Both the position numbers and the translations under genes were made by a program. Below, piece by piece: positions 3,555-46,908 of a DNA stretch of 64,000 nt. This DNA is from an uncultured delta proteobacterium. GTDB taxonomy: Bacteria; Desulfobacterota; Binatia; Bin18. Position 1 is the first letter of the stretch. Every line of letters starts with the position of its first letter. The stretch lies in contig CAVTCR010000026.1 of the NCBI GenBank assembly GCA_963733195.1, positions 32,001 through 96,000 on the forward strand. The letters are read 5' to 3'. The notes beneath the pieces are model-generated. The model searched no databases. It was not told the DNA's origin and saw only the letters and a program-made list of their open reading frames with translations.

Positions 3555-3600
3555 GACCCGGGAGTCGCCCTCCGTTTCTGCTTCATGCTTAGCGCTCGCG

Positions 3601-28726: not shown

Positions 28727-29262
28727 ATGAAGAAAAATATCAATCGTCGTCAGTTCTTGCAGACGAGTGGTCTTGCTATTGCTGGCGCTGCTGTTGCTGG
28801 TACGACCGGGACACTACTGCTTGACCCGAGTGCAACTTGGGCAGTAGCAAAGGCAACACTCGATGACCATACGACTAAAACACTCGTTGTTATGTGTCGC
28901 CAGATCTACCCACATACAGTGATTGAGGATGCGGAGTATGCCAAGACTGTCGAAGGGTTTACGAAGAAGGCAAGTACCGATCCCAGCCTTTGCTCAGCTA
29001 TTGCGCGAGGGTGTTGCTACACTTGATGCCACTGCAAAAGGCAAATGGCTAGAGGTTAAAGATGAGGACAAGCTTCAAGTCTTAAAAAGTATTGCTGACT
29101 CGCCATTTTTCCAAACAGTGCGAGGGACATTGGTCGGATGCTGGTGGACCGTACAACCTGCCAACGGTGTGGAAGAAGTTCGGCTACGAAGGGTCTTCGT
29201 GGCAGTTGGGTGGGTATCTTGCTCGTGGCTTTGACGACATCAAGTGGTTGCCAAAGGAATAG
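28727..29262 (+). CDS. Tat-exported small subunit of a flavoprotein dehydrogenase (gluconate 2-DH subunit 3-like), frameshifted
   Basis: NRRQFL twin-arginine signal, RQIYPH, FFQTVRG, and VWKKFGYEGSS..GGYL.RGFDDIKWL in a shifted frame. Confidence 0.78.
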
Positions 29263-29276
29263 TGAGGGGAAGGATC

Positions 29277-30846
29277 ATGGCGAATTATGAATTAAAAGAC
29301 GATAGCGTGGTCGTCATCATCGGCTCTGGTGCGGGCGGTGGTACCCTGGCCAATGAATTGTGTCAGAAGGGAGTGAAGGTCGTTCTCCTTGAAGCTGGCA
29401 AACGCATTGAAATTAAGGATTTTGTCAATGATGAGTGGCCGATGTTCAACAAGATCGCCTGGCTCGATAAGCGGACTACTTCTGGGTCGTGGCGTGTCGC
29501 CAAGAATTTCCCCAATCTTCCAGCATGGACAGTGAAAGCTGTCGGTGGAACGACTGTACATTGGGCTGGAGCGTCGTTGCGATTTAAGGACTTTGAATTC
29601 AAAGCCCGCTCGACCTACGGTGAGATTGCTGGTGCGAACTTGCTCGATTGGCCAATCACACTTAGCTGATTTAGAGCCGTACTATGCGCGCGCTGAGGAT
29701 AAGATGGGTGTAACGGGGACCAATAGTATTCCTCGCTTGCCGGGGAACAATAATTTTAAGGTCCTTGCCGCTGGAGCGAAGAAACTCGGTTACAAGCAAG
29801 TCCACACTGGCAATATGGCGATTAACTCACAGCCGCGTGACGGACGTAGCGGATGTATGCAAATTGGCTTCTGCTTTGAAGGTTGTAAGAGCGGAGCAAA
29901 ATGGTCGACGTTGTATACGGAGATCCCCAAGGCCGAGGCGACAGGCAAACTTGACTTACGACCAGAGAGCCAGGTATTGCGTATTCTTCATAACGACAAA
30001 GGAAAAGTTTCTGGCGTTGTCTATGCCGACAAAAACGGCAAGCAGGTCGAGCAAAAAGCCCGGGTCGTCTGTGTCGCTGCGAACTCAATCGAAAGTGCGC
30101 GGCTGCTTCTCAACTCTTCCTCGAACACATTCCCAAATGGGTTGGCCAATTCTTCTGGACAGGTTGGGCGCAATTATATGCGCCATATGACTGGCAGCGT
30201 ATATGGCATGTTTCCTAACGAAGTGAATATGCACCGTGGCACGATAATGGCTGGGATTGTTGAGGACGAAGCGATCAATGATCCGAAGCGTGGTTTTGTC
30301 GGTGGCTATCATATGGAGACCATTTCACTTGGGTTGCCGTTCATGGCCGCGTTTCTTGATCCGGGAGCATGGGGACGCGACTTTACCGAGATGCTCGATC
30401 AATTTAATCACATGGCTGGCATGTGGCTGGTCGGTGAGGATATGCCGCGTGAGAGCAATCGCATCACGTTGCATGCAACTGAAAAAGACCAGTTTGGTAT
30501 GCCCATTCCTAACGTGCATTTTGATGACCACGACAACGATGTTGCAATGCGTAAGCACGCCTATAAACAAGGATCTGCAATCTACAGTGCGGTTGGCGCG
30601 ACGAAAAACTTTGAAACGCCGCCGTATCCTTCAACGCACAATTTGGGGACCAACCGCATGAGCGAGAAGTCGCGCGACGGTGTGGTGAACAAGTGGGGAC
30701 AATCCCACGATATCGCTAACTTATTTATTTCTGATGGCAGCCAATTTACGACCGGCGGGGCGTCAAATCCAACTTTGACGATTGTAACTCTTGCAATTCG
30801 GCAGGCTGAGTATATTACTGAGGCGATGAGTAAGCAGGATATCTGA
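29277..30846 (+). CDS. GMC family FAD oxidoreductase (one frameshift)
   Basis: IGSGAGGG, VGGTTVHW, ESARLLLNS, HNLGTNRM, NPTLTI. Confidence 0.9.
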
Positions 30847-32029: not shown

Positions 32030-33151
32030 CTAGAGCGTGAGCCCATAAAACTCCGCTACGTTATCGTGGAGAATCCAGTTCTTCTGATCCTCAGTGAGCG
32101 ACTGTGCGTGCGTGCGGAGGAGCTCCTGCGAATTCGGCCAGGTCGAATCGCTGTGCGGGAAATCATTCGCCCACATCAGGCGGCGCGGATTCAACATGCC
32201 GGCGCTCTTGAACGCCACCCAATCATCCTGGAAGGTCGTGTAGATATGCTCGCTGAAATACTCGCTCGGCTTCTTCGACAACTTGCTGGTCGTGAGCCAA
32301 TAGCGATGGCGGTCATAAGCATGGTCCATGCGGTACATGAAATGCGGGACCCAACCAGCGTCCGCCTCGACGCAGGCGATCCTGAGGTTGGGATGCCGCT
32401 CGAACACCCCACCGAAAATGAACATCCCCATGATGTCCTGATTGCCGCGGATGATTGAGAGGAAGGAGTTGATCTTCGGCCCGCGGGGAGCGACCGCGAT
32501 TCCTTCGCGCGACGTCAGAATATGGAAACTCAACGGCATTTGCAGCGCAATGGCCGCCTCGAAGAACTCATCATAGATCGGGCTGTCGTAGTCTTCCTGG
32601 ATCGGGAAGCCGGGCATCATCACTCCGCGCAGGCCCATCGCCTTCATCTTCTCGAGGTCCTTAATCCCTTCCTCAGGTGTCCGCATTGCGGTCTGGCCGA
32701 GCCCTAGCAGACGATCGGGATGGGCGCCGCAATACTCCGCGATCCACAGGTTGTAGGCGTCGAAGCAGGCCTTCTTGTAGTCAGCATCGGGATGGTTGCA
32801 CAGGACCATCCCGACGCTGGGATAAATGACCTCCGCGGCCACGCCGTCCCGCTCCTGGTCGGCCATGCGCGCCTCGGGGTCCCATCCCCCGCGATGGAGG
32901 TCTGTGAACTTGGCAAAACGCGCTGAGGTTGCCAAGCCCTCGGCGGAAACGCCCGCTGCCGCGACGAGTCCCATGGGGATGGTCTGCTGCATCCCGTCAA
33001 TCACGTACGAGTCGCCGCTTTTGTCTTGCCACTCAACGTGCGGCGCAATGTCCTTGTACTTTTTGTCGATCCGTGCCGTGTACGTGTCCGGCGGCTCCAT
33101 AATGTGAGAATCCGAGGAGATGATGGGTTTGTTGATGACGCTGTTTGCCAT
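32030..33151 (-). CDS. Amidohydrolase family protein (Amidohydro_2)
   Basis: ISSDSHIMEPP, SFHI, VEADAGW, MWANDFPHSDSTWP. Confidence 0.9.
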   Translation of the reverse strand: MANSVINKPIISSDSHIMEPPDTYTARIDKKYKDIAPHVEWQDKSGDSYVIDGMQQTIPMGLVAAAGVSAEGLATSARFAKFTDLHRGGWDPEARMADQERDGVAAEVIYPSVGMVLCNHPDADYKKACFDAYNLWIAEYCGAHPDRLLGLGQTAMRTPEEGIKDLEKMKAMGLRGVMMPGFPIQEDYDSPIYDEFFEAAIALQMPLSFHILTSREGIAVAPRGPKINSFLSIIRGNQDIMGMFIFGGVFERHPNLRIACVEADAGWVPHFMYRMDHAYDRHRYWLTTSKLSKKPSEYFSEHIYTTFQDDWVAFKSAGMLNPRRLMWANDFPHSDSTWPNSQELLRTHAQSLTEDQKNWILHDNVAEFYGLTL

Positions 33152-33276
33152 GCTTCGCTGCTCCTTTCTTCAACTGCTCAGCCGCCTCGAATACTTGATA
33201 GGCGTGCCTGCATTATTTTATTTCAAATCTTCTCCAAATCGAGCTAGTTCATAGGTATAACTAAAAGTGGAGCACC

Positions 33277-33930
33277 TCACCGGGTGTCGTGCTCGAGCCG
33301 TACTGAAACTGGCGCTCGGTCTTCAGCTACATGCAGCGGAGCCGGCATCGCCCGCGCGTGATGCGAACGGTAGCTGCCAATGAGGATTACTTGCGCTAGG
33401 CCGCGACCGACGTTGCGCCAACGGTGTGGCGCGATACTCTTGTAGCGCACGCTGTCACCGACCCGCAGTTCAAACACGCGGTCACCGATGATGAGCTCGA
33501 TCCGGCCTTGGATACAAATGAGCAGCTCTTCGCCTCGGTGCGTGACGGTATCGGGCCCGCTGTCCTGCCCGGGCGGGATGAAGAATTCGTACGCGTCGAA
33601 TTCGGGATCGCGAAGATCACCGGCGAGGGATTCAACACGCACGCCGTTCCGCGCCTGCACCGTCCGCCGACCGCGCGCCGGACAATAGCTTATGTCCAGC
33701 TCACCCGTGTCCTCGCCAATCAGGAAGCTCACGCGCTTGCGCAGGCCATTCGCGACCTTGGACAGGACCGACAAGGAGGGCACCATCTGCCCAGCCTCGA
33801 TCTTCTGGATCGTGCTAACCGCCACCCCGCACCGCTGAGCGAGCTCCTGCAACGTCCAGCCCGCTTCCTGGCGGGCCGCGCGCACCCGTTCCGCAAGAAC
33901 CGCTTCAGTGGAAGCTCGATTATCCGTCAT
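33277..33930 (-). CDS. XRE-family HTH transcriptional regulator with cupin domain
   Basis: RVRAARQEAGWTLQELAQRCGVAVSTIQKIE; HRGEE...PHRWRN cupin. Start is more likely at MTDNRA than at the longer ORF start. Confidence 0.85.
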   Translation of the reverse strand: MTDNRASTEAVLAERVRAARQEAGWTLQELAQRCGVAVSTIQKIEAGQMVPSLSVLSKVANGLRKRVSFLIGEDTGELDISYCPARGRRTVQARNGVRVESLAGDLRDPEFDAYEFFIPPGQDSGPDTVTHRGEELLICIQGRIELIIGDRVFELRVGDSVRYKSIAPHRWRNVGRGLAQVILIGSYRSHHARAMPAPLHVAEDRAPVSVRLEHDTR

Positions 33931-34666
33931 GATGAGCGCTTGTGAGCGCAGCTCCTGTTTCCAATATGCGTATACTTGTGCGTGTATCGGATTTTCCAAT
34001 CCACCTACGGATATGAGCGTATCAGAAAACAGGACCACGTCAATAAGGAAGCCAGGCTCGTGCACTCGGGGTGTCTCAATCCGGGCCTGGCCGAAGGACG
34101 TGTTAATCCCGAGCTCGGGATACATACGTGTCTCGGTGTACCTCAATTATGAATATAACTATTAGTGAATATCAACGTGAGAAAATACGAAAGTGATCAG
34201 CAGCTACCTATTTACGAAGCTTCACCTACAAGGCGTTTATCGGACATTTTGTGAGAGGAACGAGTTTGAGAGGTCAGTCTGAGCCTCGTTATACGGTTCC
34301 GGTGCAAATGTAGAGTCGAGCTGATAGTTATGCAGTATAAGCTTATTTCACGAGGATTCTGCTGAGCTATTCAAAGGTCGTCACTTTAATTCCGAGATCA
34401 TCACTCTCTAGATTCTGCCACGCTTACGAGCACCCACGTCTCGCGCTCTACTTTTCTGGAAACTGCCCACGCAAAGAGGAAAAATCCCGTATTCCCTGGG
34501 CGATTCCTTTACCACTAAAATAACTTGTTCGCCTCAGCATACGGGATCGTATCTTCTGTGATCGCTTTGTAAGTGCCAGTTTCCATATGAGCGTGTGATG
34601 ACTACCTGAGGACGGAACACACCACAGGCTGGCGGTTGGCTGGCACGCCAGGAAAGGACACGAAAC

Positions 34667-34894
34667 ATGGGAACGAGGCAAGACCGTGAAGGGGACGGAG
34701 AAAACGCGGCCGCGCAACGCCGGATTGAGGAGCTGCGCGGTGAGCTCGAACGAAAACACAATGAACTGGACGGGCTGCTGCTGCGCAGTGAAACGCTGCA
34801 CCCGAGTGCCTACGGGGCGCTGCAGGGGCAGTTGGAAGAGGAGATTGAGAAGCTGCAGGCGGAACTCAAGAGCTTGACCGCAGTGGCCGGATAA
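34667..34894 (+). CDS. Small coiled-coil hypothetical protein
   Basis: RBS aggaaagga before ATG; heptad-rich, helical 75 aa. Confidence 0.5.
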   Translation: MGTRQDREGDGENAAAQRRIEELRGELERKHNELDGLLLRSETLHPSAYGALQGQLEEEIEKLQAELKSLTAVAG

Positions 34895-35705
34895 ACAGGG
34901 ACCAGCCGCCGGTGACACTGTGCGGGTGGTATCGGAAGGTGGCGGTCAGCGAGGAAGGGGAGCTGGAGACCACCATCCTGTGAAAAGTCGGTCAGTGACA
35001 AATGTGTATGGGAAGCTATTGGCACACTGCTCGGTAAAGGGTTGACCGTATGTCTGCGCTCACAAAGCAAGACTGGAATCCTCCGCTGGGACGAGAGCAC
35101 TGAGTGTCCAGGTCGTCACTCCCCAACTCTCGTCAAGTTTAGTCGCGGCCATAAGCCACACCTGATCGTTCACAGCGGGGAATTCGTGCAGTATCCTCAA
35201 CCATGCGGAACAGAGGCGACTCTTGCGGAACGGTCGTCCCACGGAGCACAGCGACCGGCGTCACGCGGACGAGCGCATGGAAAAAGGGCGGCTCCCCCAG
35301 GCTCATGCCCACTGGGAGGACGTCCGTCAGGCGGCCGGTAAAGACCAACGGCGATTGCGTGAATACATTGGTGCTCGTCATCTCCATCGTCGTCATACGT
35401 TGCTCCGGTAGTGAGGGGGGCGCGAACATACTGCAATCACCGGGTTTGCTCTCCGAGCCAGGTTCCCCACCGGACGCAAGTAGAGCACGGAGGCAGGAGG
35501 AGATGGCCCGCGCTGAGTCCACAGCGTCTACGAGCACAACGCTGGTCTGACCATGAAGGGTCATATGATGGAATAGAGCCGAGATACGAGAGACAGTTGA
35601 ACCCTCAGCTCGGGGTTAACAGAGATTCAGCGATGGCCTCAGACCCCTAGACTCTTAGACTCTTCTTCCCATTTCCCCATTTATCCTTTCCCCTCTGCTA
35701 CACCC

Positions 35706-35735
35706 TTGACAGCAGACGGTCTCTAATCGCATAAA
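35706..35735 (+). promoter_or_regulatory. Putative sigma70 promoter of the CuMMO operon
   Basis: TTGACA-N18-CATAAA about 90 bp upstream of the first gene. Confidence 0.45.
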
Positions 35736-35824
35736 GGGCATGCAATTATAGTTGGTTAGGCGAGTTTTTACTGTGGAGTCCGAGTCATTTGGATGTGCAT
35801 GGCAAGCTTTAGATTATTCTATTC

Positions 35825-36400
35825 ATGATGACAATGATCGTTGGTTTGATAATGGGTTCGACAGCTTGGGCACATCGCGATCGAGGACCTGATGATCCAT
35901 GTCGAAAGCAGATAGGAGATTCGCTATTGCACATCACACTCTACCAACCGCACTTTGATCCTGATGCTGAGTATTGCGAAGAGGTTCCGCGTGCAGGGAG
36001 GACAGTGGTGGTAGTAGATGTGACTGCTGGTGAATTGCGGCAAGTTCCAATCAGTGTGGAAATGGTAGCTCAGTAGTGAATCTGGGCAGTCGCGTTCGGT
36101 GTCTGTCGCTTCCGGCAAAGATATTGGATCGAGGGATGGTAGATTCTGAAGTGGTTTTGGACGAGGGCAACAATTACGTTGCTGAGGTTGTGGTTGACCT
36201 GGGGGCCGGAAAGGAACCGCAGAAATTTTCCTTTCCTATTCAAGTGGATCCATGGTATACCGCAATGGTGAAACCGGCATTGATGGTTCGTTGGGTTGCT
36301 CCTAGTAACGGTAATTTCGGTGATTCGTTATCAGATGAGTTCTCGACAGCAGGAAGAGATGTCAGTAGGCAAAAGAAGGGTACGCCGAGTAGCAAATTAA
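35825..36400 (+). CDS. PmoD/AmoD-like copper-binding accessory protein (two apparent frameshifts)
   Basis: Signal peptide ending AWA-H; DPC...IG..LLHITLYQP.....EYCEEVP..G.TVVVVD....LR..P, the PmoD/AmoD pattern. C-terminal TM helix VGLLLVTVISVI; stop at 36400 directly before the next RBS. Confidence 0.72.
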
Positions 36401-36412
36401 GGAGGGTTCTAT

Positions 36413-37270
36413 ATGGCACAGTCACAAGTGGTGCGGCAGACGCCACGAGAAAATGGCCACAGTACAACCACGACTGGGTATTCCGCCAAACCGACAGGCT
36501 GGATGGTTGGGTGGAAGTCGTTGTTTGTCAGCTGCGCGATCATTATGGCAGCGAACGTGTTCCTCTGGTTCTGGAATTACGCCTATATGTTCACGGCCGG
36601 GTTGAACTCGGCGAGTCCAGAGTTCACCTATTATTACCGGTCGCTCTTTTGGGGCGAGGTCATCACGTTAGGCTTGTTTACCGGTATATGGTTTGGCTGG
36701 TTGATTAGAACAGGCCGTGAGATGGTCGGGCAACCGTGCGAGCGTGCGGAAGAGGTGCGACGAATCGCGGTTCTCTGGAGCTTGATTGGCGCTACGAGCC
36801 TCTGCGTGTATCTGATGGCTAGCTTCTGGCCGAACTGGGACGGATCATGGCATCAGACAATGGTGCGCGATACTGCGCTTACCCCGACGCACATCCCGAT
36901 GTTCTACTTCTTCTTCCCGTTGTCGGTAACTTTGGCTTTAGGCTCATACATCTACGGACGTTTTCGTATTCCCGCGTTATATGCCAAAGAGAAGGGATTT
37001 CCGTGGTCGTTCTTCCTGTTGATTAGTGCTGCGGTGCTGGAATGCATGACGGTTGCTGCCAATGAGTGGGGGCACAGCCTGTGGATTTCTGAAGAGATTT
37101 TCTCGGTCCCCTTCCACTGGCCGTTCGTTGTGTACGGCTGGCTAGCTAGCGGTATGTTTGCGGTGTGGGGCGAGACGATCATCCGCTTGTTCGAGATTGA
37201 AAAGGCTGAAGAAGCCGCGACCTCAGGGACGTCAGGCGCGTCGTTGCGTCAGCAGGCGGTCACAGACTAA
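36413..37270 (+). CDS. pmoC: Copper membrane monooxygenase subunit C (PmoC/AmoC family)
   Basis: AGLNSASPEF..YY, DGSWHQTMVRDTALTPTH (CuC D/H/H) and NEWGH..W..EE.F..PFHW (CuD N/H/H). Confidence 0.93.
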   Translation: MAQSQVVRQTPRENGHSTTTTGYSAKPTGWMVGWKSLFVSCAIIMAANVFLWFWNYAYMFTAGLNSASPEFTYYYRSLFWGEVITLGLFTGIWFGWLIRTGREMVGQPCERAEEVRRIAVLWSLIGATSLCVYLMASFWPNWDGSWHQTMVRDTALTPTHIPMFYFFFPLSVTLALGSYIYGRFRIPALYAKEKGFPWSFFLLISAAVLECMTVAANEWGHSLWISEEIFSVPFHWPFVVYGWLASGMFAVWGETIIRLFEIEKAEEAATSGTSGASLRQQAVTD

Positions 37271-37380
37271 GGATAATGAAGAATGTGGAATGGAGAATGA
37301 AAAATTCAGAGCGAAACGTTCTGAACTCTTCGTTCGTTTTGTATTTTTCACATTCTTAATTCTTCATTCTTAATTTTTAA
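37271..37380. repeat. Inverted arrays of degenerate heptamer repeats between subunits C and A
   Basis: aatgaag/aatgtgg/aatggag/aatgaaa followed by cattctt/aattctt/cattctt/aattttt. Confidence 0.65.
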
Positions 37381-37401
37381 TTAGACAGAGAGGATCGCCT
37401 C

Positions 37402-38206
37402 ATGGCAGCAGGGACAACAACAGTAACTGACATTGCCGATGCCGCCGAACGGCAAAAACGGCTGGAACTCAAAGCACTCCTGAACAAGGAGTACAAGTGG
37501 ATTGATCGCAGCTGGGATATCGTCTTCTGGGTAACGGCGATTTTCGTGGTCGCCGGTGCAGCGGATATCACGAAGCAGTTGTTCGCCGGTGACTGGGACT
37601 TCTGGACAGATTGGAAAGATCCCCAGTGGTGGCCGGTGGTTACCGCTTTTGCCACCATCATCATTCCCTCTGCTCTGCAATATATCCAATGGGCAGCGTG
37701 GCGCTTCCCGACAGGTGCGACATATACATCCTGTTGTTTCTTTCTTGCAGCCTGGGTTGGACGCTACTTTAATTGGCACATTGCAGAAGCCTATCCGATG
37801 AACTTCGTGTGGCCTATTTCCACGATATGCGCAGGGATCATTCTCGACTTCACGTTGATGAAGACAAAAAGTTTCCTCATCACGTCTTTTGTCGGTGCGC
37901 ATCTCTGGGCAGTGCTTAGTGTGGGCGTACAATTATGTTCCGCTAGCTCCCTTTCTACAGCCTGCGATGTTCATGGACCATGTTTTGACGCTCGCTGACG
38001 TCCAAGGCATCGTCTACATTCGATCGCAGACGCCAGAGTATCTGCGACTCATTGAGCGTGGCGCATTGCGAAGTTTTCTGGGTGAGACTCAGTACGTTTC
38101 GTTAGCCTTTGCTGGGACTGCGGCTTTCGCTGGATACTGGATTGGCCAGTTCATTGGTCGGTATCTCGCTGTGTGGCCGATCCGACGATACCTGAAGACT
38201 CTCTAA
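37402..38206 (+). CDS. pmoA: Copper membrane monooxygenase subunit A (PmoA/AmoA family), one frameshift near 37920
   Basis: GDWDFWTDWKD.QWW, RFPTGAT, RYFNW, YPMNFVWP, LADVQG..YIRSQTPEYLRLIERGALRSF. Confidence 0.92.
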
Positions 38207-38221
38207 GAACATAAAGTACGC

Positions 38222-38615
38222 ATGGGGAAACGGATGAAAACCCGACTGGCCGTACCATCTCGACACACCTGGCTGATACATGTGACCATGTTGGCCTGCA
38301 TGTTCGTGCTGCCTGCACTAGCACACGCACACGGTGGGATGGGACCTGATGAAATTGGCCCACCTATTGGCACCGCAGGGTTGATCGGTTTTGCCAGCTA
38401 TTGGGTGGTGATGCTGTGGCCTTCAAGAAAGAAGAAAGATGAGCTCACAGACTGGACCCAACAGTCAACACCCTGACGCTGCAGCGAATGACCTGGACGC
38501 CCACGCAAGAGAAAGAACCCTCGTGTGAAGCGGATTCCGCATCTGCGTAAGGTCGAGGCGGGCGCGACAGATTTCTAGCGACCAGCCCGCGAGGAGGAAA
38601 GCGAGCGATGGATAG
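38222..38615 (+). CDS. Small membrane protein between subunits A and B (signal peptide, His-Gly-Gly N-terminus, one TM helix, basic tail)
   Basis: LPALAHA-HGGMGPDEIGPP...IGFASYWVVMLWP-SRKKK. The ORF stops at 38476, but basic coding-like sequence (RPRKRKNPRVKRIPHLRKVE...RRKASDG*) continues in shifted frames to overlap the B start. Confidence 0.6.
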
Positions 38616-39856
38616 GAAGCTTTTGACAATCCTCATGACACTGGCTCTTGTGGTAACAGTCAGTGTCTCGAAAGTATTCGCTCATGGGGAAGCTGGTGAC
38701 GAACCGTTCCTTAAGAACATGACCACTGCGTTTTATGACGTATCGGTCTCACCTACGGAAATCGAGGTCGGTCAACCAGTAACAGTAACGGGAACAGTCA
38801 AAATTCTCGAGACTTGGCCGCACACACTTGAGGCACCCGAGCTTGCTGCGATCGTTCCCGTAGTTCCGGGGCCTGTATTCGTCATGAAAGACCGGACTAT
38901 CAATGACCAAGCCTCGGTAGGTTCGTTTTTTGCCGAGAAGGGTGGGATTTATCAGTTTAAGATGACACTCCTCGGCAAAGAGCCTGGAAAATGGCATGTC
39001 CATCCAGGGATCGCGATCAGTGGAACCGGAACGCTGGTTGGGCCTGGTGAATGGGTCAACGTGAAAGCCAGCGCGACGAAATTTGAGTTTCCTGTGACAG
39101 TTGCTCAATGGGCAGACAGTTGAACTCAACACCTACGGTGGCCAGTTCGTGTGGTGGTGGTCGTTCGCCGGATTTCTCCTTGGGATGGCGTGGATGGTGT
39201 ACTGGACATTCACGAAACGAACAGTGACAAACCTTGCGGTGACGATGCAACTTCCGGTGAACGATGACGGACCTGACATTGGTCTCATCACGCCACGTGA
39301 CCACATGTGGATGAATGTCATCGCTGGCCTGACCATAGCGCTCCTGATCGTTGGCTGGACCTACTCAGCAACCCAATATCCAGTGCGATGGCCGCAGCAG
39401 ACCGACTGGATTACCCCGCGTCACATTTCCTCGGGAGACAAGATGGCCGAGGTACATGCAGGCGGAGCCACCTACGATGACGGAACCGATACGTTAGTGA
39501 TGAAGCTCCAAGTCAAGAACACTACAGCCAGCGCGCTTACTCTTAACCGTGTTGTTATCGGGATGGCGACATTCGTGCCGGGCGGGGAAGCGGAACAGGC
39601 GAAAGCTGGACCGCGCGATTTCGTCGGACCGCTCGAAGTGGAACCAAAAGGTGAGATTGCTCCGGGTGAGACGAAAGATCTGACATTGACGATCGCGAGC
39701 AAGATTTTCAGTACGGCACGATTGATCCCGCTGAATGATCCGCAGCAGTTTGTTGCGGCGCTCTTACGCTTTGAGAACGCCCAAGGCGGTCAGCAGTTAG
39801 TGACAGTGCGTTCGGGCGTCGTGCCGACCCAGTTCCGTGGACAGTTCTTGCCATAA
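38608..39856 (+). CDS. pmoB: Copper membrane monooxygenase subunit B (PmoB/AmoB family), one frameshift near 39100
   Basis: Signal peptide then HGE (N-terminal His), PGPVF, WHVHP...GPGEWV (CuB His brace), two TM helices and second cupredoxin domain (IAPGETK, RL). Confidence 0.92.
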
Positions 39857-39864
39857 TCTTGCGA

Positions 39865-39887
39865 AGGTGGGGAGAAAATCCCCACCT
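39865..39887. terminator. Hairpin between subunit B and the convergent VOC gene
   Basis: aggtgggga-gaaaa-tccccacct perfect 9-bp stem. Confidence 0.5.
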
Positions 39888-39966
39888 CGTCAAGCTGCCA
39901 AGAGTAAACAGCGCTTCATTTTTCCTTACTTTCTCTGCTTTCCCCTTAGCCTTTAGCCTATTTCCC

Positions 39967-40440
39967 TTAATATCCGGTTGTGACCTCAACCAAAATGTCA
40001 TCTGGGTCTCGCACGTAGACCGACCCTGCGGTTTCTGTGCCATGCAAAGAATACGGTACGTGCTTTTCCTTAAGTGTCGTCAGGATCGCAGAGAATTTTT
40101 CTGAAGTGGCCTTGAGCGCGACATGATGCATACTGCCGACGCCTCGGACCGTTCGTGCCGGCCCTTTCTCGGGGAAATCGAAAAACGCTAACTGGTTGCC
40201 ACCGCCCATATCGAGAAAGATATGGGTAGACGTGGGTTCGTCACGGTTCGCCATAATCTTGCTGAGGCGCATGCCGAGGACCTCAGTGTAGAAACGGATA
40301 GTCGTATCAAGGTCTGAACAAATCAGCGCGAGATGATCGACCCCGCCAGTGTTGACAGCTTGAGGCGTTCCCTCGTCGGTGGATAGATAGCGTTGTTTGA
40401 GTTCTTCACGACGGGCCTGGTACATACTCAGGTCTGACAT
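39967..40440 (-). CDS. VOC/glyoxalase family protein
   Basis: GVDHLAL...FYTEVLGM...MHHVAL...SVYVRDPDDILVE. Confidence 0.88.
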   Translation of the reverse strand: MSDLSMYQARREELKQRYLSTDEGTPQAVNTGGVDHLALICSDLDTTIRFYTEVLGMRLSKIMANRDEPTSTHIFLDMGGGNQLAFFDFPEKGPARTVRGVGSMHHVALKATSEKFSAILTTLKEKHVPYSLHGTETAGSVYVRDPDDILVEVTTGY

Positions 40441-40726
40441 AGCATTCTCCTACTGTTGCTTCACTCGCTACGGGTCTGATGCCCGAAGCTTGCTGCGAGG
40501 TTCTTCACTATTCCTCGCTCTTTTTTTGTTTGTCAACTGCAGATAGATACTGGCTGACCTCCGCGGTAGACTTTCATTCCGAGTTGCGGCTGCGGCCTCA
40601 GATCTGGAACGGCTCGATTGTGACCCTCTGTCCGCCCCAACCTTAAACGCTGCCTCATGAGGTTCTGCTGCAGCACCTGGCAATGCAAACTTGCCCTGTT
40701 GCGCAAGTCAGGATAAACCTCCCCCG

Positions 40727-42495
40727 ATGTTTATTCGTCGTGTTTTGACATTCATACTTTTTATGGTGATGTTGATGGCTGCTGTGCTGCTCGTGCCAGC
40801 TGCATGGCTTCCGCAATCGTGGCAATCTTATTACGCCGCATGGTTTGGTGAACCCTCGTACGAGGCTCCGCCCAGCAGCCAAAAAGTCGCCATTCCTCCA
40901 GCTGAACCATTTTGCCCGGACCTGCATCCTGAGTGGCGCAAAGCGCAGGAGATCGACGGTGTGACGATTGACGAGTCACTTGCTTGTTCTCCTGATAATC
41001 CGTGGGCCATTGCTGCGTTTGTCAAAGGGACGAACAACGTGTCGATGGACACGTTGATGAAATCTGGCTTAGCGACCGATGCGGTCGTGATGGGCGAAGA
41101 TAAAGATGGCGATGGTGATCCTGATGTCGTCACCATCAAGCTAGAAGTTGCGGAATTCAACGGACGCTCGCCCGATATGTCTGAAGTCATTCCTGCGTTT
41201 TTATCGCTCCGGGTATTCAACCGGGATTGTGGGTGTTTGCGCCAAAGATTGCCGGGATGGCAACAAAGAATGCAGAGACAGTAGAAGCGAACGAATTCCT
41301 ACGTGCGCCGTCGCCGGTGATCCGCGTTGAACAAGGTGACACCGTGCAAGTGATTCTTGAAAATACGCACTATTTTCCGCATACGATACATTTTCATGGG
41401 GTCGATCATCCTTATTCACATCATGAAGGCCATGGCAACGACGGAGTACCAGAAGCAAATGAACTGCCTGTGATGCCTGGCGAGAGCCGTGCGTATGAAT
41501 TTTCGCAAATGGCTCAGTCAGCGATGCATACTGGACATGGGGAAGTCGATCCCGGCAGACGTCGCACGTTCGAGATGGCACCACGGCATCCAGGGACGAT
41601 GTTCTATCATTGTCACGTGCAACCGCAGCATCATATTCACATGGGGTTACAGGGGATGTTTGTGGTCGAGGAGAATCGCCCGAACAATTGGGTGCAGACG
41701 TTAAATATTGGTGCCGGTCACGTCCGTCATCCTTCCGTGGCGGTGCGCGAGAAATATGTGCGTGAGTATGATCTCCATTTTCAGGATATCGATAGTCAAC
41801 TGAATGATCTGATCAAAAGTACGAACGACCCGCGGGTGTTAGAGAAGCGGATGAATCGGCAGTATAACATCACAAAGCGTAGCGCCAATTACTTTCTGCT
41901 CAATGGGAAATCTTTTCCATATACATTTCGTGATTCGTTGGTAGTCGTCGAACCGAACGAGAAAGTAAAATTGCGCGTGCTCGCTGGTGGTGAGGAAGGG
42001 CTATCGCTTCACCCCCATGGCCATAAAGTAAAAATCACGCACTATGATGGCGTGGAGCACAATCCTGTAGCGCAAATTACGCGCGACGTTGTGTGGCTCA
42101 GCATGGCCCAGCGGGTGGACTTAGAACTCAACACCACGAATGACGGTTTACATGGCACTGGCGATGGTGTGTGGTTTCTTCACGACCACAAAGAGCGTGC
42201 GTTTACAACTGACGGAATGCATCCTGGTGGCAGTGCTACTGCGATCGTGTATCGATCCTATCTTGATGAACGTGGCTGGCCAAAACTGCAAGGCGTCGAT
42301 TGGTCATTGTTCTTTACTCCACAGTATTATCGGCGTGAGATTCCAGTGTGGACAACCTATGATCCGACCGGCATGTTTGGCGAACCCGGCCCTGCGACCT
42401 CGCGTCTCGGACGGTTTATCTTGCTTGGTTTTGTTGTCGGCGCGCTCCTGGGATGTTTGACTGTCTTGCTACTATCATTGCGAAAACGTGCGTAA
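40727..42495 (+). CDS. Membrane-anchored two-domain multicopper oxidase (frameshift near 41200)
   Basis: HTIHFHG, FYHCHVQPQHHIHMG (type 1 Cu in domain 1), LHPHGH and WFLHDH; N- and C-terminal hydrophobic segments. Confidence 0.87.
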
Positions 42496-43213
42496 GGCGG
42501 ACGTGATGTGGTTCATAGTGCTGCTGTTCTTTGCTCTTTTTGTTCCATCGCGAACTATAGAGGCGCAACCTGCGACGGAGAACCTCACTCCGGCAGACTC
42601 AGGCCATGCTCACCACCAACACCAGGCTGCCTCTCATGAACACCACGGCATGCAGATGGACATGGGTGGCATGGTGATGAATGAGAATCATGACCAACTG
42701 CCGCGGGACTGTGGCAGGATTGCTGGAGAACAAAAAATTACAGTCCATGCTGGCAGGAAGTACGCGCAGCAGTTCAACGGCACGATGTTCGCGTACGATC
42801 AGCACGAATGGGATGTTGCTCCGTGCACGAAAGTGACTGTGACGTTGGAGAATGAAGATACTGTGCGTCATCAATGGATGCTGCACGGATTGCCACGCTA
42901 TCTTCATGCCGAGGGCATGTTTCATCTCGAAGTCAACGGACGAGGGAGTAAGAGTGGAACGTTTATCACACCGGGTGCGAAGAAAACCTACCTTGTTCAC
43001 TGTGATGTTGCCCAACACATGGAAAAAGGCATGAAGGCCCAGCTGAAAGTTGGCGGAGGCGATGGTAATCTGCCAAGTATTCCTGGTATTACCGGGGCTC
43101 GTTACCCAGAAACATATTCGGGTGCACGAGTTGGATGGGGTACGTGGATAATTCTTCTTCTGTGTCTGTTTAGTGCTGCTTTGACTGTACGTGGGTTGAG
43201 ACGGTGGGAATAA
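42488..43213 (+). CDS. Cupredoxin-like copper protein with His/Met-rich N-terminus and C-terminal anchor
   Basis: HAHHQHQAASHEHHGMQMDMGGM; HQWMLHG; HCDVAQHMEKGM type 1 Cu motif; overlaps the oxidase stop. Confidence 0.8.
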   Translation: MRKADVMWFIVLLFFALFVPSRTIEAQPATENLTPADSGHAHHQHQAASHEHHGMQMDMGGMVMNENHDQLPRDCGRIAGEQKITVHAGRKYAQQFNGTMFAYDQHEWDVAPCTKVTVTLENEDTVRHQWMLHGLPRYLHAEGMFHLEVNGRGSKSGTFITPGAKKTYLVHCDVAQHMEKGMKAQLKVGGGDGNLPSIPGITGARYPETYSGARVGWGTWIILLLCLFSAALTVRGLRRWE

Positions 43214-43215
43214 AG

Positions 43216-43245
43216 CGTAGGGGCGACCGGCCGGTCGCCCCTACG
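43216..43245. repeat. GTAG-type REP palindrome
   Basis: cgtaggggcgaccggccggtcgcccctacg, a perfect palindrome directly upstream of the RAYT. Confidence 0.85.
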
Positions 43246-43261
43246 AAGGAGATGAGGGTGA

Positions 43262-43882
43262 TTGAAAAGATTTGAGAAACATAATCGTCGGTCTGTACGA
43301 CTGTCTGGGTACGATTATAATCAGCCAGGAATGTATTTTGTCACAATCTGTACCGTGAATTGCGAGTTGTTGTTTGGGGAGGTCGTGGGAGGGAAGATGG
43401 TAATGAGCGAGTGGGGAGGGGAGGTAAACGCATGTTGGCAAGCGATAAACGCCCATTTCCGACACGTAGAATTGGATGAATTCCAGATCATGCCGAATCA
43501 CCTACACGGGATATTAACCATTGCCCAGAGGTATGAGGAGGCTCCCTCGGTCGTAGGGGCGCAGCATGCTGCGCCCCTACAGCGAAATGTGATCTCTCCA
43601 AATGTCCATCCGGGCTCACTAGCGGCGATCGTCCGCTCCTTCAAATCCGCGGTTTCTGCACACGTCAACCTCCTACGTCAAACCCCTGGTACCCCCGTTT
43701 GGCAACGCAACTACCACGAACACGTCGTTCGCGACGAAAACGATCTTCATCGAATTCGTGAGTACATCCAAACGAATCCCTTGCGCTGGGAACTGGATCG
43801 TGAGAACCCCAAGCGGCGAGGTGAAGATGAATTCGACAAATGGTTTGAGGGAACCACACAGCAAAAGAAGAATCGTCCGTAG
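43262..43882 (+). mobile_element. REP-associated tyrosine transposase (RAYT, Y1 HUH)
   Basis: RRSVRLSGYDY...YFVTICT, IMPNHLHGI (HUH), VRSFKS, WQRNYHEHVVR, YIQTNP..W. Confidence 0.9.
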
Positions 43883-43896
43883 CGTGCGTCGTTACC

Positions 43897-45032
43897 TCAC
43901 TCCCTCATCCCTATCACGTTGAAGGTAGGTACAGGGTTACGGAACCCCTTAAGAGAAAGTTCTTCTGTGGGTTCAGCCTCTACCAATCCTCTACCGCCGT
44001 ATAAACTCGTTGACTAATGAGGATTTGTCCACCCTGAGCTTTATCACACAGGCGAGCAGCGAGATTCGTCACTGGACCTATCGCACCATAATCAATGCGG
44101 CCTTCAAATCCGATCATTCCCAGAGTGGCATACCCTTGGGCGATACCGACCCCGAAACCCAGATGATGTCCGCGTTTTCGCCACCTCTCGATTAACTCAC
44201 TCATCTGCTGCCGCATGGCAATAGCCATCTGCACAGCCTGTACGGCATGGTCTGGACAAGGGAGGGGGTCGTTGAAGAAAACCATCAAGCCATCGCCGGC
44301 AAAGCGCTCAAGTGTACCCTCGAAGCGGAAGATCTGGGTCCCCAGAGTGCTGTGATACTCTCGCAGAACTCCCATTACTTCTTCGGGCTCGGCTATTTCA
44401 GAGAACGCCGTAAACCCTCGCAGGTCGCAGAAGACGACAGTGATCTCTCGTCGGTGGCTCTCCAGGAGTTTCTCTCCTCCCGCAGAAACAACGAGTTCGG
44501 CCAGCTGCGGAGAGAAAAACCGCTTCAGCCGTCCGACGCGTTCCAGTTCAGCGAGTTGCTCTTCTACCCGTTGTTCGAGTGTCCGGTTCCAGTCTGCCAA
44601 CTGCGTCGACTGCGTTTCAAGGTGCGTGGCTTGCTCCTGGACCGTGTCGTGGAGCGCTTTGATCCGCAGCATCGACTTGACCCTGGCGACCAGGGCCGCT
44701 TGGTCTATGGGTTTCGTCAAATATTCTTCGGCGCCCGCCTCCAGACCAGCGACGACATCCTTTGAGTCCGCCTTGGCCGTGACCAGAATGATTGGCATGA
44801 AGGGGAGAGAGGCGTCTGCTTTGAGGTGGCGACAGACGTCGATCCCATCTATCTTAGGCATCATGATGTCTAGCAAGATCAAGTCTGGTTGTTGGGCTGT
44901 CGCAACTGCCAGGGCTTCCTCACCGTTAGTCGCGGTGAGGATCTCATAACCGTGGACACTCAAACGGGTCTGGAGAATATCCAGGTTCATTGGTTCATCA
45001 TCTACGATGAGAATGCGTGGTGGGGTTCTCAC
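43897..45032 (-). CDS. Response regulator-adenylate/guanylate cyclase fusion (frameshift near the 3' end)
   Basis: REC plus VVFCDLRGFT, GDGLM, VTNLAARL; LSLKGFRNPV in a shifted frame. Confidence 0.9.
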
Positions 45033-45393
45033 GGTAGATACTCGCGAACTTTGGCCAACAGCGCGCGTGGACTGAAAGGTTTTGAGACATAGGCATCACA
45101 ACCAGCCTCGAACGCTTTGACGTCGTCCCCGCTCAGCGCATACGAGGTCACAACAATGATCGGGATGTGACGGAGCGTAGGGTTGGCTTTAATTCGCCGC
45201 GTCGCTTCGTAACCATCGAGCCCAGGCAGTTGGATGTCCATGAGGATCAGGTCAGGAACGTGGGTTTCGGCTGCCGCCACGCCGGCTTCTCCTGTCACTG
45301 CCTCAATGATTTCATAGCCAACACTTGTGAGCAGATCCGCACAATGCGCCGGTTATCCTCTTCGTCCTCGACAACCAAAACCCGCTTGCTCAT
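45029..45393 (-). CDS. Single-domain response regulator (DivK-like), frameshifted
   Basis: [17 protein letters not shown]...[15 protein letters not shown]...KPFSP. Confidence 0.85.
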
Positions 45394-46908
45394 GTCGCCT
45401 CCCTTTGCTGTTCGACACGAACCGGCAGCGTGAACCGGAAGGTCGAGCCGTTCCCCATGCTTGATTCCACCCAGATACGTCCGCCATGCAGCTCGATAAT
45501 TTTTTTGGCGATGCTCAGACCAAGGCCGGTGCCACCCTTTTTTCGGGTACTCGAACTGTCAGCCTGGTGGAATTCCTCGAAGACTTTCTGCTTGATCGGC
45601 TTCCGCGATCCCTGTCCCAGTGTCAGACACCGCGACCACAAATGTGCCGTTCTCTGAACTCACCTGTACGCCGACCTTGCCGACCTCAGTGAATTTGATG
45701 GCATTTCCCACAAGGTTCGTGAGCACTTGCGTGATGCGTTGCTCATCGCCTTTACCCACTGGCAAGTCAGGCTGTACGTTTACGTTCAAGACGAGCTGTT
45801 TCTCCGCTGCCAGTGGTTCCACAGCTGTGTAGACGGTCTGCACAACCCCTGGCATCGAATAATCAGCGAGAGAGAGCGTCAGCCGTCCTGCCTCAATCTT
45901 GGAGAGGTCCAGGACGGCGTTGATCAGGCCGAGGAGACGATGGCCGCTTTGTTGTATGCGCTCCATGATCTCTTTGATTTTCTCCGGTACCTCGCCATAA
46001 ATGCCGTCCATAATAAGTTCGGTATAGCCTTGGATGCCATTGAGGGGAGTGCGCAGTTCGTGGCTCATGTTAGCGAGGAATTGGGATTTGTGACGGTTCG
46101 CAGCCTCGATCTGCTGATAGAGTTGCCTCAGCTCTTCGTTCATGCGGTTCAGATTGGCCGCGAGGGTGCCGAGTTCATCCCGATTTGGCACCTCAACTCG
46201 ATGAGAGAAGTCACCCGTGGCGATCTGCCGGAGTTGCACGTCCATTTGCTTGACTGGTCCAATCAGCGACCACGAGATCGCGTAGCCGAGGATGAGAGCC
46301 AAGCCGATGCTCCCAACTGCGAATCCGATGATCACCCAACGAGCAGTGAGGTACGCAGCATGGCTGACCTCGACGCGTGCCACCATATCAGATTCGGCCT
46401 TGTTCACGAGCTCATTGGTGAGGCGCTCGAGGCGGTCTGCCAAAGGGCTTGCCTTGGCAAGTTGTAGTTCTCGACCTTCAGCGACCTTCCCGCCACGGAT
46501 CAATTCGACGACAGTGGTCACGACCTGAATGAACTGGGTATACTCTTGCTGGACCCGGTCGAACAACTCAACCTCATCCTGCTCCACGAACTGGAGCCGG
46601 TCGAGGTCATAGCCAAATTGATTGAGTTGGCGAAGCGTTGCTTCGAGCGTCCGCTCATCCGGCGCCAAAAGAGTCGAGGCAACGCTGTAGAGCTGTCCGG
46701 TGGTGTCGTGCTGGAGCTGGCGGTAAGCGGCGATCTTGCGGTGGAGTTCCACCATCTCCTCGGCGCGGCGGTTCGCTTCGCCCAGCACATGAAGGCCAAT
46801 GACTCCAACCATTATGAGCAGCACCACCATAGCCAGGAAAGCCGCCAAGAGCTTGGCGTGGACAGTGGCTGGGATGCGTGCGACCAGTCGAGGCAACCAG
46901 TCTGTCAT
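45390..46908 (-). CDS. Membrane sensor histidine kinase (4-helix sensor, HAMP, HisKA, HATPase), frameshifted near the 3' end
   Basis: Two TM helices, [37 protein letters not shown]. Confidence 0.9.

What the first reader, a model, noticed from the sequence alone, without database searches (positions are those of the whole stretch)
35825..39856. Deeply divergent copper membrane monooxygenase operon with atypical order D-C-A-orfX-B
Seen: complete homologs of the pMMO/AMO C, A and B subunits, co-oriented, with a PmoD-like gene first and an extra ORF between A and B. Established: canonical pmo/amo/hmo operons are contiguous CAB (ABC for pxm), with pmoD/amoD usually downstream. Normally near-invariant motifs are altered (C: PNWDGSWHQ for TEQDGTWHQ; A: ADITKQL for YHIHAML). 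Inference: this may be an uncharacterised CuMMO clade with a different substrate, in an organism that is neither a classical methanotroph nor a nitrifier, and standard pmoA/amoA primers would probably miss it.
Basis: partly seen in the sequence, partly recalled or inferred. Interest (0 to 1): 0.92.

Follow-up and report, generated by a model that had tools for sequence, protein, structure and literature searches.

The report
Binatia copper monooxygenase operon, already described
This is a real copper membrane monooxygenase gene cluster of an uncultured soil bacterium (class Binatia) whose unusual gene order is normal and already published for that group, and whose broken reading frames are most likely assembly errors.

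Summary
Window 35825-39856 (+) carries a PmoD-like gene, then C, A, a small ORF X and B of a copper membrane monooxygenase (CuMMO). A multicopper oxidase and a cupredoxin protein follow, to 43213.

It is not a new clade. The genome is a Binatia MAG. D-C-A-X-B is the standard layout there: X lies between A and B in 70 of 73 related loci. Binatota CuMMOs with a "CAxB" order and pmoD were published in 2021.

Subunit A is about 41% identical to the characterised mycobacterial hydrocarbon monooxygenase (HMO). It sits in a well-supported multi-phylum clade that also holds cultured Carbonactinospora, Caldinitratiruptor and Lentzea. That clade shares the "ADIT" replacement of the PmoA His-x-His motif. 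All CuB, CuC and CuD copper ligands are invariant.

In this assembly D, A, B, probably X, and the oxidase are interrupted by single-base indels. rpoB, rpoC, EF-Tu and DnaK are broken in the same genome. Read through, the subunits keep 397 of 398 clade-invariant residues. The breaks are therefore most likely assembly errors.

The substrate is unknown; a short-chain hydrocarbon is the best guess. Interest is modest.

The parts
35825..36400 (+). pmoD-like gene: signal peptide, periplasmic cupredoxin-like domain with N-terminal His and two invariant Cys (Cx9HxnC class), C-terminal membrane helix. Read in three frames here because of single-base insertions near 36074, 36101 and 36287.
   Evidence: Searches give the frames. 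Searches show the insertions against 3 relatives. One search gives the 40-row alignment with invariant H30, D37, C39, H49 and C64. Searches give the fold (pLDDT 87; best match 6cpd PmoD). One search gives the PmoD family definition.
36413..37270 (+). Subunit C, intact, 285 aa, preceded by an AAGGAGG ribosome-binding site.
   Evidence: AmoC, 151 bits. CuC ligands D142/H146/H159 and CuD ligands N216/H220/H234 aligned to PmoC and invariant in 29 rows; 90.5% identical to the same-genus genome G002.
37402..38206 (+). Subunit A, split into 37402-37998 and 37889-38206 by one extra base near 37916.
   Evidence: the halves are 97.7% and 91.7% identical to G002; the ADIT motif.
38222..38476 (+). ORF X: signal peptide ending ...AHAHGG, a short periplasmic stretch (GPDExGPP), one membrane helix (YWxVxLWP), and a basic cytoplasmic tail. 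The tail is cut short here (84 aa against mostly 111-133 aa in relatives; full range 77-319 aa) after an indel region near 38443.
   Evidence: 36-row alignment; no Pfam family; 436 homologues, all unnamed or 'hypothetical'.
38608..39856 (+). Subunit B, split into 38608-39123 and 39101-39856 by one extra base near 39099.
   Evidence: the CuB ligands (N-terminal His after the signal peptide, plus the HVH pair) align to PmoB and are invariant in 28 rows.
40727..42495 (+). Membrane-anchored multicopper oxidase (about 590 aa in relatives), split here into 40691-41284 and 41227-42495 by one missing base near 41199.
   Evidence: best PDB relatives are the two-domain multicopper oxidases 3g5w and 2zwn; found downstream of B in 33 of 80 related loci.
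42488..43213 (+). Cupredoxin-type (blue-copper-like) protein with an N-terminal signal or anchor and a C-terminal membrane helix. It overlaps the end of the oxidase gene.
   Evidence: Cu-oxidase_2, weak; the orthologue hits Cu-oxidase_2 at 21.4 bits and SoxE at 19.4 bits; 74% identical to G002; co-occurs with the oxidase.
39967..40440 (-). Oppositely oriented glyoxalase/VOC-family gene lying between B and the oxidase. It is absent at this place in G002, so it is probably not part of the system.
   Evidence: Glyoxalase, 56 bits. G002 has gaps across about 39873-40700; in G002, B and the oxidase are adjacent.

Best explanation
The locus is the ordinary CuMMO operon of the family Binataceae (class Binatia, formerly Binatota). 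Its order is pmoD-like, then C, A, X and B. In this lineage a multicopper oxidase and a cupredoxin protein follow.

Inferred mechanism: C, A and B form the usual membrane complex, which uses copper and O2 to hydroxylate a small hydrophobic substrate. A short-chain alkane or alkene is the most likely substrate. This rests on the enzyme's weak grouping with mycobacterial HMO and on what the literature says; it is not shown.

The PmoD-like protein, the oxidase and the cupredoxin protein probably deliver or handle copper or electrons in the periplasm. X may be a small membrane partner of the enzyme. These roles are inferred from anatomy and conserved gene order only.

The reading-frame breaks in D, A, X, B and the oxidase are most likely single-base errors of this assembly, so the organism probably has a working operon.
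For: Identity. Pfam hits for C, A and B lie far above their cut-offs. All nine accepted copper ligands align to solved pMMO chains and are invariant in the clade: CuB is three His, CuC is Asp plus two His, CuD is Asn plus two His. The ligand sets are as stated in PMC13058606 and PMC8262859.

Lineage. The 80 closest C-subunit loci (66-89% identity) mostly carry Binatia, Binataceae or 'Deltaproteobacteria' MAG titles. The type-1 A gene (70% identity or more) occurs in 35 of 201 genomes sampled across the class, 22 of them among the 24 other genomes of the same family.

Layout. X lies between A and B in 70 of 73 loci. D lies upstream of C in 60 of 80 loci. The oxidase lies downstream in 33 of 80.

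Literature. CAxB order, pmoD and an HMO/BMO-like placement are published.

Tree. win_A lies within the Binatia type-1 group (support 99). That group sits inside a 38-row clade (support 99, stem 1.31), which is a weak sister (support 55) to the NBB4 and M. dioxanotrophicus HMO genes.

Frameshifts as artefacts. Of 115 orthologue-like long genes of a same-genus genome, 17 are frame-broken in this genome. That is 19 junctions in 159.7 kb, 13 of them net +1. The broken genes include rpoB (twice), rpoC, EF-Tu and DnaK. A GMC oxidoreductase and a histidine kinase elsewhere in the window are also split. Read through with X at the breaks, A, B, C and D keep 397 of 398 clade-invariant columns. The A gene is unbroken in the other 34 genomes that carry it; one of these copies is cut by a contig end. 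Environmental contigs 88-99% alike lack the extra base at about 36290, 37915/37918, 38441 and 39099 wherever they cover those places.
Against: The break density in the operon is about 7-9 in 7.4 kb, roughly 1 per kb. That is about eight times the genome-wide estimate of 0.12 per kb, so local decay cannot be excluded. Two other stretches of the window (about 28.7-30.8 kb and 45.0-46.9 kb) also show breaks close together.

The indels are not in long homopolymers, which is not the commonest error type.

No reads of the source sample could be examined. The four runs found hold only 5-6% of the sampled words and come from relatives.

No substrate is shown for any member of this clade. The sister relation to the characterised HMO is weak (support 55, quick tree), and A is only 41-42% identical to HMO-type genes. 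'Hydrocarbon' is therefore an inference.
Confidence: 0.75

Rival explanations
1. The operon is a recently inactivated pseudogene cluster. The single-base indels are real mutations, and this organism has lost its CuMMO.
For: There are seven to nine indels in about 7.4 kb, against about 0.12 per kb in 159.7 kb of other coding sequence. They are not in long homopolymers. A foreign gene on the opposite strand sits between B and the oxidase.
Against: rpoB, rpoC, EF-Tu and DnaK are also frame-broken in this assembly, so indel errors certainly occur. Read through, the subunits keep 397 of 398 invariant residues, and A is 96% identical to its nearest relative. Neutral decay long enough to collect 7 or more indels should also have produced many amino-acid changes; that expectation is my inference. 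C is fully intact.
Confidence: 0.13
2. The enzyme is a particulate methane monooxygenase, and these Binatia are methanotrophs (possibly consumers of atmospheric methane).
For: Murphy et al. note that 5 of 9 Binatota genomes with this type of pmoA also carry a methanol dehydrogenase homologue. Genes of this kind are annotated as pmo, and Binatia were called putative methanotrophs in PMC11264602. All copper ligands are kept.
Against: Scores against the pMMO/AMO equivalog models are about half the cut-offs. A is 37-42% identical to every other type compared. The enzyme does not group with the pmo/pxm-like rows in the tree. A 2026 preprint finds the 'Putative pmoA Binatales' clade among hydrocarbon monooxygenases and not with verified pmoA; the missing methane-processing modules it describes were stated for the TUSC-bearing MAGs. 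I did not test methylotrophy genes in this genome.
Confidence: 0.1
3. The enzyme is an ammonia monooxygenase.
For: The best NCBIfam models by score are the bacterial AmoA, AmoB and AmoC models. A multicopper oxidase and a cupredoxin protein lie next to it, as discussed for archaeal ammonia oxidisers (PMC9038741).
Against: Those scores are far below the equivalog cut-offs: 166 against 319 for C, 136+63 against 290 for A, and 156+99 against 336 for B. No paper seen proposes nitrification for Binatia. I did not search this genome for hydroxylamine-oxidising enzymes.
Confidence: 0.02

Closest known systems
Binatota/Binatia CuMMO: the 'Actinobacteria/SAR324-type' of Murphy et al. 2021 (PMC8262859) and the 'Putative pmoA Binatales' of bioRxiv 10.64898/2026.02.02.703227
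   Same: Same lineage. Same CAxB order with a hypothetical gene between A and B, pmoD present, and conserved PmoB His33/His137/His139 equivalents.
   Different: Nothing essential differs. The passages I read give no position for pmoD, no description of X, and no mention of the ADIT motif or the oxidase/cupredoxin module. The supplements were closed and may cover these points.
Mycobacterial hydrocarbon monooxygenase hmoCAB (Mycolicibacterium chubuense NBB4 plasmid pMYCCH.01)
   Same: A three-subunit CuMMO outside the pMMO and AMO groups, and the weakly supported nearest characterised group in the A tree. Characterised HMOs act on C2-C4 alkanes, alkenes and chlorinated alkanes, according to PMC12533140.
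   Different: A is only 41% identical, C 32% and B 31%. In NBB4, C, A and B are contiguous, with no gene between A and B and no upstream D. NBB4 A keeps the first His of the motif (YHLN), where this clade has ADIT.
Particulate methane monooxygenase (M. capsulatus Bath, Methylocystis; PDB 1yew, 3rgb, 3rfr, 7s4h)
   Same: Same three folds by sequence (E 1e-39 to 1e-50) and all CuB, CuC and CuD ligands.
   Different: The equivalents of PmoA His38, His40 and His168 are Asp, Thr and Leu. NCBIfam equivalog cut-offs are not reached. An extra gene X lies between A and B.
PmoD/AmoD copper proteins (Fisher et al. 2018, PMC6189053; PDB 6cpd)
   Same: Signal peptide, periplasmic cupredoxin-like domain with two invariant Cys, C-terminal membrane helix, and a gene next to CuMMO genes. 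6cpd is the best fold match.
   Different: The motif is Cx9HxnC, not the CuA-forming Cx7MxHxnC. The gene lies upstream of C rather than downstream of B. An invariant His follows the predicted signal-peptide cleavage site. There is no Pfam or NCBIfam hit.
Small extra membrane subunits of archaeal AMO (AmoX, AmoY, AmoZ), as an analogy for X only
   Same: Small, single-pass membrane proteins encoded with CuMMO genes and long overlooked (PMC13058606).
   Different: No sequence relationship was found. X has no family and was seen only with Binatia-type loci.

Membership tests
Copper membrane monooxygenase (CuMMO) superfamily | Three subunits matching Pfam AmoC (PF04896), AMO (PF02461) and Monooxygenase_B (PF04744) above the gathering scores | tested here: met
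   C scores 151 bits, the A halves 126 and 57.5 bits, and the B halves 137.5 and 107 bits; the intact orthologues score 189 bits (A) and 249 bits (B).
Copper membrane monooxygenase (CuMMO) superfamily | CuB ligands in B (three His; His33/137/139 of M. capsulatus PmoB) | tested here: met
   One search gives the alignment to 6cxh and 3rgb. One search shows H43, H147 and H149 invariant in 28 rows. The window itself has ...FAHGEAG and ...KWHVHPG.
Copper membrane monooxygenase (CuMMO) superfamily | CuC (Asp + 2 His) and CuD (Asn + 2 His) ligands in C | tested here: met
   One search gives the alignment to 3rfr, 3chx and 4phz. One search shows D142, H146, H159, N216, H220 and H234 invariant in 29 rows, including the window's own C.
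Copper membrane monooxygenase (CuMMO) superfamily | Open, full-length genes for all three subunits | tested here: not met
   In the sequence as given, A and B are each split once. I judge these to be assembly errors. That is an inference, not a demonstration.
Copper membrane monooxygenase (CuMMO) superfamily | Copper- and O2-dependent hydroxylation activity | not testable with these tools
   No biochemical data exist for any member of this clade in the papers read.
pMMO/AMO proper (NCBIfam equivalogs TIGR03078/79/80, NF041557, NF041640, NF041641) | Score at or above the curated equivalog cut-off | tested here: not met
   C scores 166 against a cut-off of 319, the A halves 136 and 63 against 290, and the B halves 156 and 99 against 336.
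Characterised actinobacterial HMO clade (NBB4 type) | Nesting with hmoA of M. chubuense NBB4, and a contiguous hmoCAB order | tested here: not met
   A is 41% identical. It forms a separate clade with support 99 and stem 1.31, and is only a weak sister (support 55) to NBB4. NBB4 has no gene between A and B.
Binatia HMO-like CuMMO (published Binatota type with CAxB) | Encoded in Binatia genomes, C-A-x-B order, pmoD present, CuB His residues kept | tested here: met
   Direct comparison with the sequences used in the papers was not possible, because the supplements were closed.
PmoD/AmoD family | Signal peptide, periplasmic domain with two strictly conserved Cys, C-terminal membrane helix (Fisher 2018) | tested here: met
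   One search shows C39 and C64 invariant in 40 rows. One search shows a helix at 4-22, a beta domain, and a helix at 156-204. One search gives 6cpd as the best hit.
PmoD/AmoD family, CuA-forming subclass | Cx7MxHxnC motif | tested here: not met
   the motif is C39-x9-H49...C64, the class reported to bind copper without CuA features.

The most novel reading that the evidence does not exclude
The 'ADIT' CuMMOs form a functionally distinct enzyme type with a substrate other than the C2-C4 alkanes of mycobacterial HMO. The type spans Binatia and also Carbonactinospora, Caldinitratiruptor, Lentzea, Dormibacterota and others. It is defined by Asp/Thr in place of both PmoA motif histidines. In Binatia it has recruited X, a single-pass membrane protein with an N-terminal histidine, as a fourth subunit. 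It has also recruited a dedicated periplasmic copper/electron module: a Cx9H-type PmoD, a membrane-anchored multicopper oxidase and a cupredoxin protein.
Probability: 0.2. Interest if true: 0.6.

Novelty: new member of a known kind. Interest (0 to 1): 0.3.

Why it matters
Binatia are widespread in soils, and their CuMMO genes are routinely annotated as pmo. This feeds claims of unconventional methanotrophy. The present case adds no new enzyme class, but it sharpens what is testable.

- The type-1 enzyme keeps every accepted copper ligand.
- It carries a clade-wide signature (ADIT) that separates it from HMO, pMMO and AMO.
- It has close relatives (62-67% identity in A) in named, apparently cultured bacteria, in which substrate range could be measured directly.
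- It comes with a conserved small membrane protein and copper-protein module that nobody seems to have examined.

The case also shows that frame breaks in this assembly should not be read as gene loss.

Tried and rejected
1. A complex prediction of X with C, A and B gave 'no answer' (median score 0.16, mark 0.32). It is not evidence either way.

2. The Protein Atlas search for X gave best scores of 0.77, below any useful level.

3. Sequencing runs: four holders from three studies, each with 5-6% of the sampled words. No RNA holder was listed, so nothing can be said on expression. Laying them showed contigs of relatives (88-99% alike), not the source sample. They cannot settle whether the indels are real in this strain.

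4. A search for a second copy of A or B in the genome found none.

5. I tried to find syntenic regions of the whole window in four relatives, to count frame breaks outside the operon. Synteny outside the operon is poor, so I dropped this approach. I relied instead on 400 kb of a same-genus genome.

6. The Rfam scan of 33000-44000 found no RNA family.

7. The literature search for Carbonactinospora or Caldinitratiruptor together with CuMMO terms listed no paper among the 25 shown that holds either organism name. The listing covers only the held library.

8. Rejected: that the altered motifs disable the enzyme. They lie outside the CuB, CuC and CuD ligand sets.

9. Rejected: that the order D-C-A-X-B is peculiar to this genome.

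Supplementary files of papers were closed. Murphy et al.'s Extended Data and Fig. S1 may already describe pmoD position, the 'x' gene or residue conservation.

Full report
**What is there.** On the + strand of window 35825-43213 lie seven co-oriented genes. Pfam recognises subunit C (36413-37270, intact, 151 bits). It recognises subunit A in two pieces (37402-37998 and 37889-38206, which meet at profile position 148). It recognises subunit B in two pieces (38608-39123 and 39101-39856, which meet at profile position 140). The gene before C and the 84-aa ORF between A and B have no Pfam or NCBIfam family. Downstream lie a multicopper oxidase in two pieces (40691-41284 and 41227-42495) and a cupredoxin-type protein (42488-43213). 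The genome is a 6.95-Mb, 87-contig MAG, 93% complete. It has no second locus for A or B.

**Whose genome.** The 80 best relatives of the C subunit in species-representative genomes are 66-89% identical. Most are titled Candidatus Binatia, Binataceae or, under older naming, Deltaproteobacteria MAGs. A few bear other labels (Klebsiella pneumoniae, Enterobacteriaceae, Methylomirabilota, Verrucomicrobiae, Thermodesulfobacteriota, Proteobacteria), which I take to be submitters' mislabels of MAGs. PF02461 is found in 21 of 24 other genomes of the same family. In a sample of 201 genomes of the class, the type-1 A gene (70% identity or more to the same-genus copy) is found in 35. Of these, 22 are among the 24 same-family genomes other than the window's own, and the rest lie in three other families. 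It was not found in the remaining 16 families searched.

**The layout is the rule, not the exception.** In same-genus and same-family genomes every gene of the cluster is intact and in the same order. Across the 80 loci the commonest orders are D-C-A-X-B-D-MCO-CUP (25 loci), D-C-A-X-B (18) and C-A-X-B (17). X lies between A and B in 70 of the 73 loci that hold both. A D gene precedes C in 60 of 80. The oxidase follows in 33 of 80. Of the 40 loci that have B but no oxidase, 37 still have at least 2.7 kb of sequence after B. Murphy et al. 2021 (PMC8262859, passages read) already report Binatota CuMMO genes as CAB, CAxB or CAxxB, where x is a hypothetical protein. They report pmoD in 5 of 11 genomes, conserved His33/137/139 of PmoB, and an affiliation with actinobacterial/SAR324 bmoA-like genes or with TUSC. 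A 2024 paper and a 2026 preprint (passages read) likewise place 'pmoA' of Binataceae/Binatales near butane and hydrocarbon monooxygenases and leave the substrate open. A 2025 paper lists Desulfobacterota_B (Binatota) among HMO carriers.

**How divergent it is.** A is 41-42% identical to the HMO-type genes on Mycolicibacterium, Mycobacterium and Rhodococcus plasmids, and 38% to a Methylomagnum pxmA-like gene. It is 37-39% identical to a second CuMMO type present in many of the same Binatia genomes, and 40% to a third, TUSC-like type. NCBIfam equivalog scores are about half their cut-offs. Yet the A subunit has many relatives at 54-91% identity: 199 proteins at E <= 1e-10 among 866 candidates, of which 120 are listed. 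These include proteins that their sources name as Caldinitratiruptor microaerophilus (67%), Carbonactinospora thermoautotrophica (62%), Lentzea sp. (64%), Dormibacteraeota, Egibacteraceae, Actinomycetes and Acidobacteria MAGs.

I built a 49-row tree (quick search, SH-aLRT support only, midpoint root). I chose the rows myself: 9 type-1, 6 type-2, 2 TUSC-like, 3 plasmid references, 8 named proteins, and those of every fifth listed protein that were at least 240 aa and not already among the named rows. The window's A sits inside the Binatia type-1 group (support 99). That group sits inside a 38-row multi-phylum clade (support 99, stem 1.31 changes per site). This clade is only weakly (55) sister to the NBB4 and M. 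dioxanotrophicus HMO pair. The tool warned that the long branches of the type-2 and TUSC/pxm rows meet, so that part of the tree is unsafe.

**Active-site anatomy.** Against solved pMMO chains, C keeps Asp-x3-His...His (CuC) and Asn-x3-His...His (CuD). B keeps the His that follows the signal peptide and the His-x-His pair (CuB). All nine residues are invariant in 28-29 clade members. The ligand sets are as given in PMC13058606 and PMC8262859.

In C the residues before the Asp differ (PNW against TEQ). In A the equivalents of M. capsulatus PmoA His38, His40 and His168 are Asp, Thr and Leu. The ADIT motif is shared by all type-1 rows examined, including the Caldinitratiruptor, Carbonactinospora, Lentzea and Dormibacteraeota proteins. 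NBB4 HMO has YHLN, type 2 has PHVS, and the TUSC-like and pxm rows have FH(I/L)H. It is therefore a signature of this clade. What it does is unknown.

**The accessory genes.**
- D proteins (40 rows, both the upstream copy and the second copy found after B in many genomes) share a signal peptide. They have an invariant His directly after the likely cleavage site, Asp37, Cys39-x9-His49, Cys64 and a C-terminal helix.
- The model of the same-genus D (pLDDT 87.1, pTM 0.70) has a beta-sandwich between two helices. Its best PDB match by far is the PmoD soluble domain 6cpd (E 1.3e-8, 25% identity). The next hits are antibody domains at E >= 7e-5. This meets Fisher et al.'s definition of PmoD, but in the Cx9HxnC class, which bound copper without forming a CuA site.
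- X (36 rows) has a signal peptide ending in Ala-His, then Gly..Gly-Pro-x-Glu-x-Gly-Pro-Pro, one helix with invariant Tyr-Trp...Leu-Trp-Pro, and a variable basic tail. A profile search finds 436 proteins. All are unnamed or 'hypothetical', and the only organism named among the 120 listed is Candidatus Binatus.
- The oxidase's best solved relatives are the two-domain multicopper oxidases 3g5w and 2zwn. That 3g5w comes from Nitrosomonas is my recollection, not in the output.

Roles for D, X, the oxidase and the cupredoxin protein in copper supply, electron supply or complex stability are inferences from conserved neighbourhood only.

**The broken frames.** Against three relatives the window has single extra bases near 36074, 36101, 36287 (D), 37916 (A), 38565 (X-B spacer) and 39099 (B). 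It has an indel region near 38443 (tail of X) and one missing base near 41199 (oxidase). None is in a long homopolymer.

To see whether this is peculiar to the operon, I took all 161 ORFs of at least 300 aa from 20 stretches (400 kb) of the same-genus genome G002 and searched them against this genome. I kept only queries whose best hit was at least 65% identical; the other 46 were dropped. That left 115 orthologue-like genes. Of these, 17 are read in more than one frame here. There are 19 junctions in 159.7 kb (0.12 per kb), 13 net +1 and 6 net -1. The broken genes include rpoB (two junctions), rpoC, EF-Tu, DnaK and a PcrA/UvrD-like helicase. Elsewhere in the window a GMC oxidoreductase (29244-29669 with 29545-30846) and a histidine kinase (45559-46908 with 45390-45641) are split too.

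Read through with X at the breaks, A, B, C and D keep 397 of 398 columns that are invariant in their clade alignments. The one change is Val to Leu in A. Among the 35 genomes of the class sample that carry type-1 A, only this one has it split. Contigs from four public runs (three studies), 88-99% alike, leave out one letter at 36290, 37915/37918, 38441 and 39099 where they cover those places. They come from relatives, not from this strain.

Against the artefact reading, the operon's break density is about eight times the genome-wide figure. I put assembly error at about 0.85 and true decay at about 0.13.

**Primers.** The recalled A189f primer matches perfectly at 37588-37605, the GDWDFW codons. 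The recalled reverse primers A682r and mb661r have no site in the gene within three mismatches.

**Verdict.** The interpretation as a novel, atypically ordered clade is not. This is a further member of the published Binatia HMO-like CuMMO group, in its normal gene order, in an assembly with indel errors. The following remain unexamined in the passages I could read: the ADIT signature shared with cultured Actinomycetota and Caldinitratiruptor, the X family, the Cx9H PmoD placed first, and the oxidase/cupredoxin module. These justify a modest score, not a high one.

Noticed in passing
window 29244-30846 (+) and 45029-46908 (-): A GMC oxidoreductase and a (hybrid?) histidine kinase are each split over two or three overlapping frames. 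These are the same kind of break as in the operon. A small Tat-signal protein at 28727-29234 also looks split.
   Followed up: partly
window 1-400, 3440-3620, 13719-13789: Short stretches that match dozens of places (75-93% identity) in each of four related genomes. They are a family of dispersed short repeats or a very common conserved segment, not identified.
   Followed up: no
window 43262-43882 (+): ORF with a weak IS200-like Y1 transposase hit (E 1e-4, just under the Pfam cut-off), directly after the cupredoxin gene. It may mark the edge of the conserved block.
   Followed up: no
L005-L010, L018 (genomes G009, G015, G017, G019, G021, G023): Many Binataceae carry a second, even more divergent CuMMO (type 2). 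Its A is 37-39% identical to type 1, sits on a tree stem of 2.02, and has the motif PHVS. Its C-A-B genes have no detected X. Its place among known clades was not determined.
   Followed up: partly
L003 (G026), L004 (G024): A third CuMMO type scores 350-380 bits on Pfam AMO and has the FH(I/L)H motif. It is probably the TUSC-like type of the literature. In L004 it too is preceded by a PmoD-like gene (31% identical to the window-type D).
   Followed up: partly
window 37588-37605: Perfect 18/18 match to the widely used forward primer A189f (recalled from memory) inside this very divergent A gene.
   Followed up: yes
L034-L086 (28 loci), after subunit B: A second PmoD paralogue (25-29% identical to the upstream D of G002; N-terminus AHGG instead of AHRDRGP) lies between B and the multicopper oxidase in 28 of 80 loci. 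It is absent from the window and its genus.
   Followed up: partly
record titles (e.g. L024, L026, L028, L062, L068): Several MAGs carrying this Binatia-type operon are titled Klebsiella pneumoniae or 'uncultured Enterobacteriaceae' in the public records. These are probably submitters' taxonomic mislabels.
   Followed up: no
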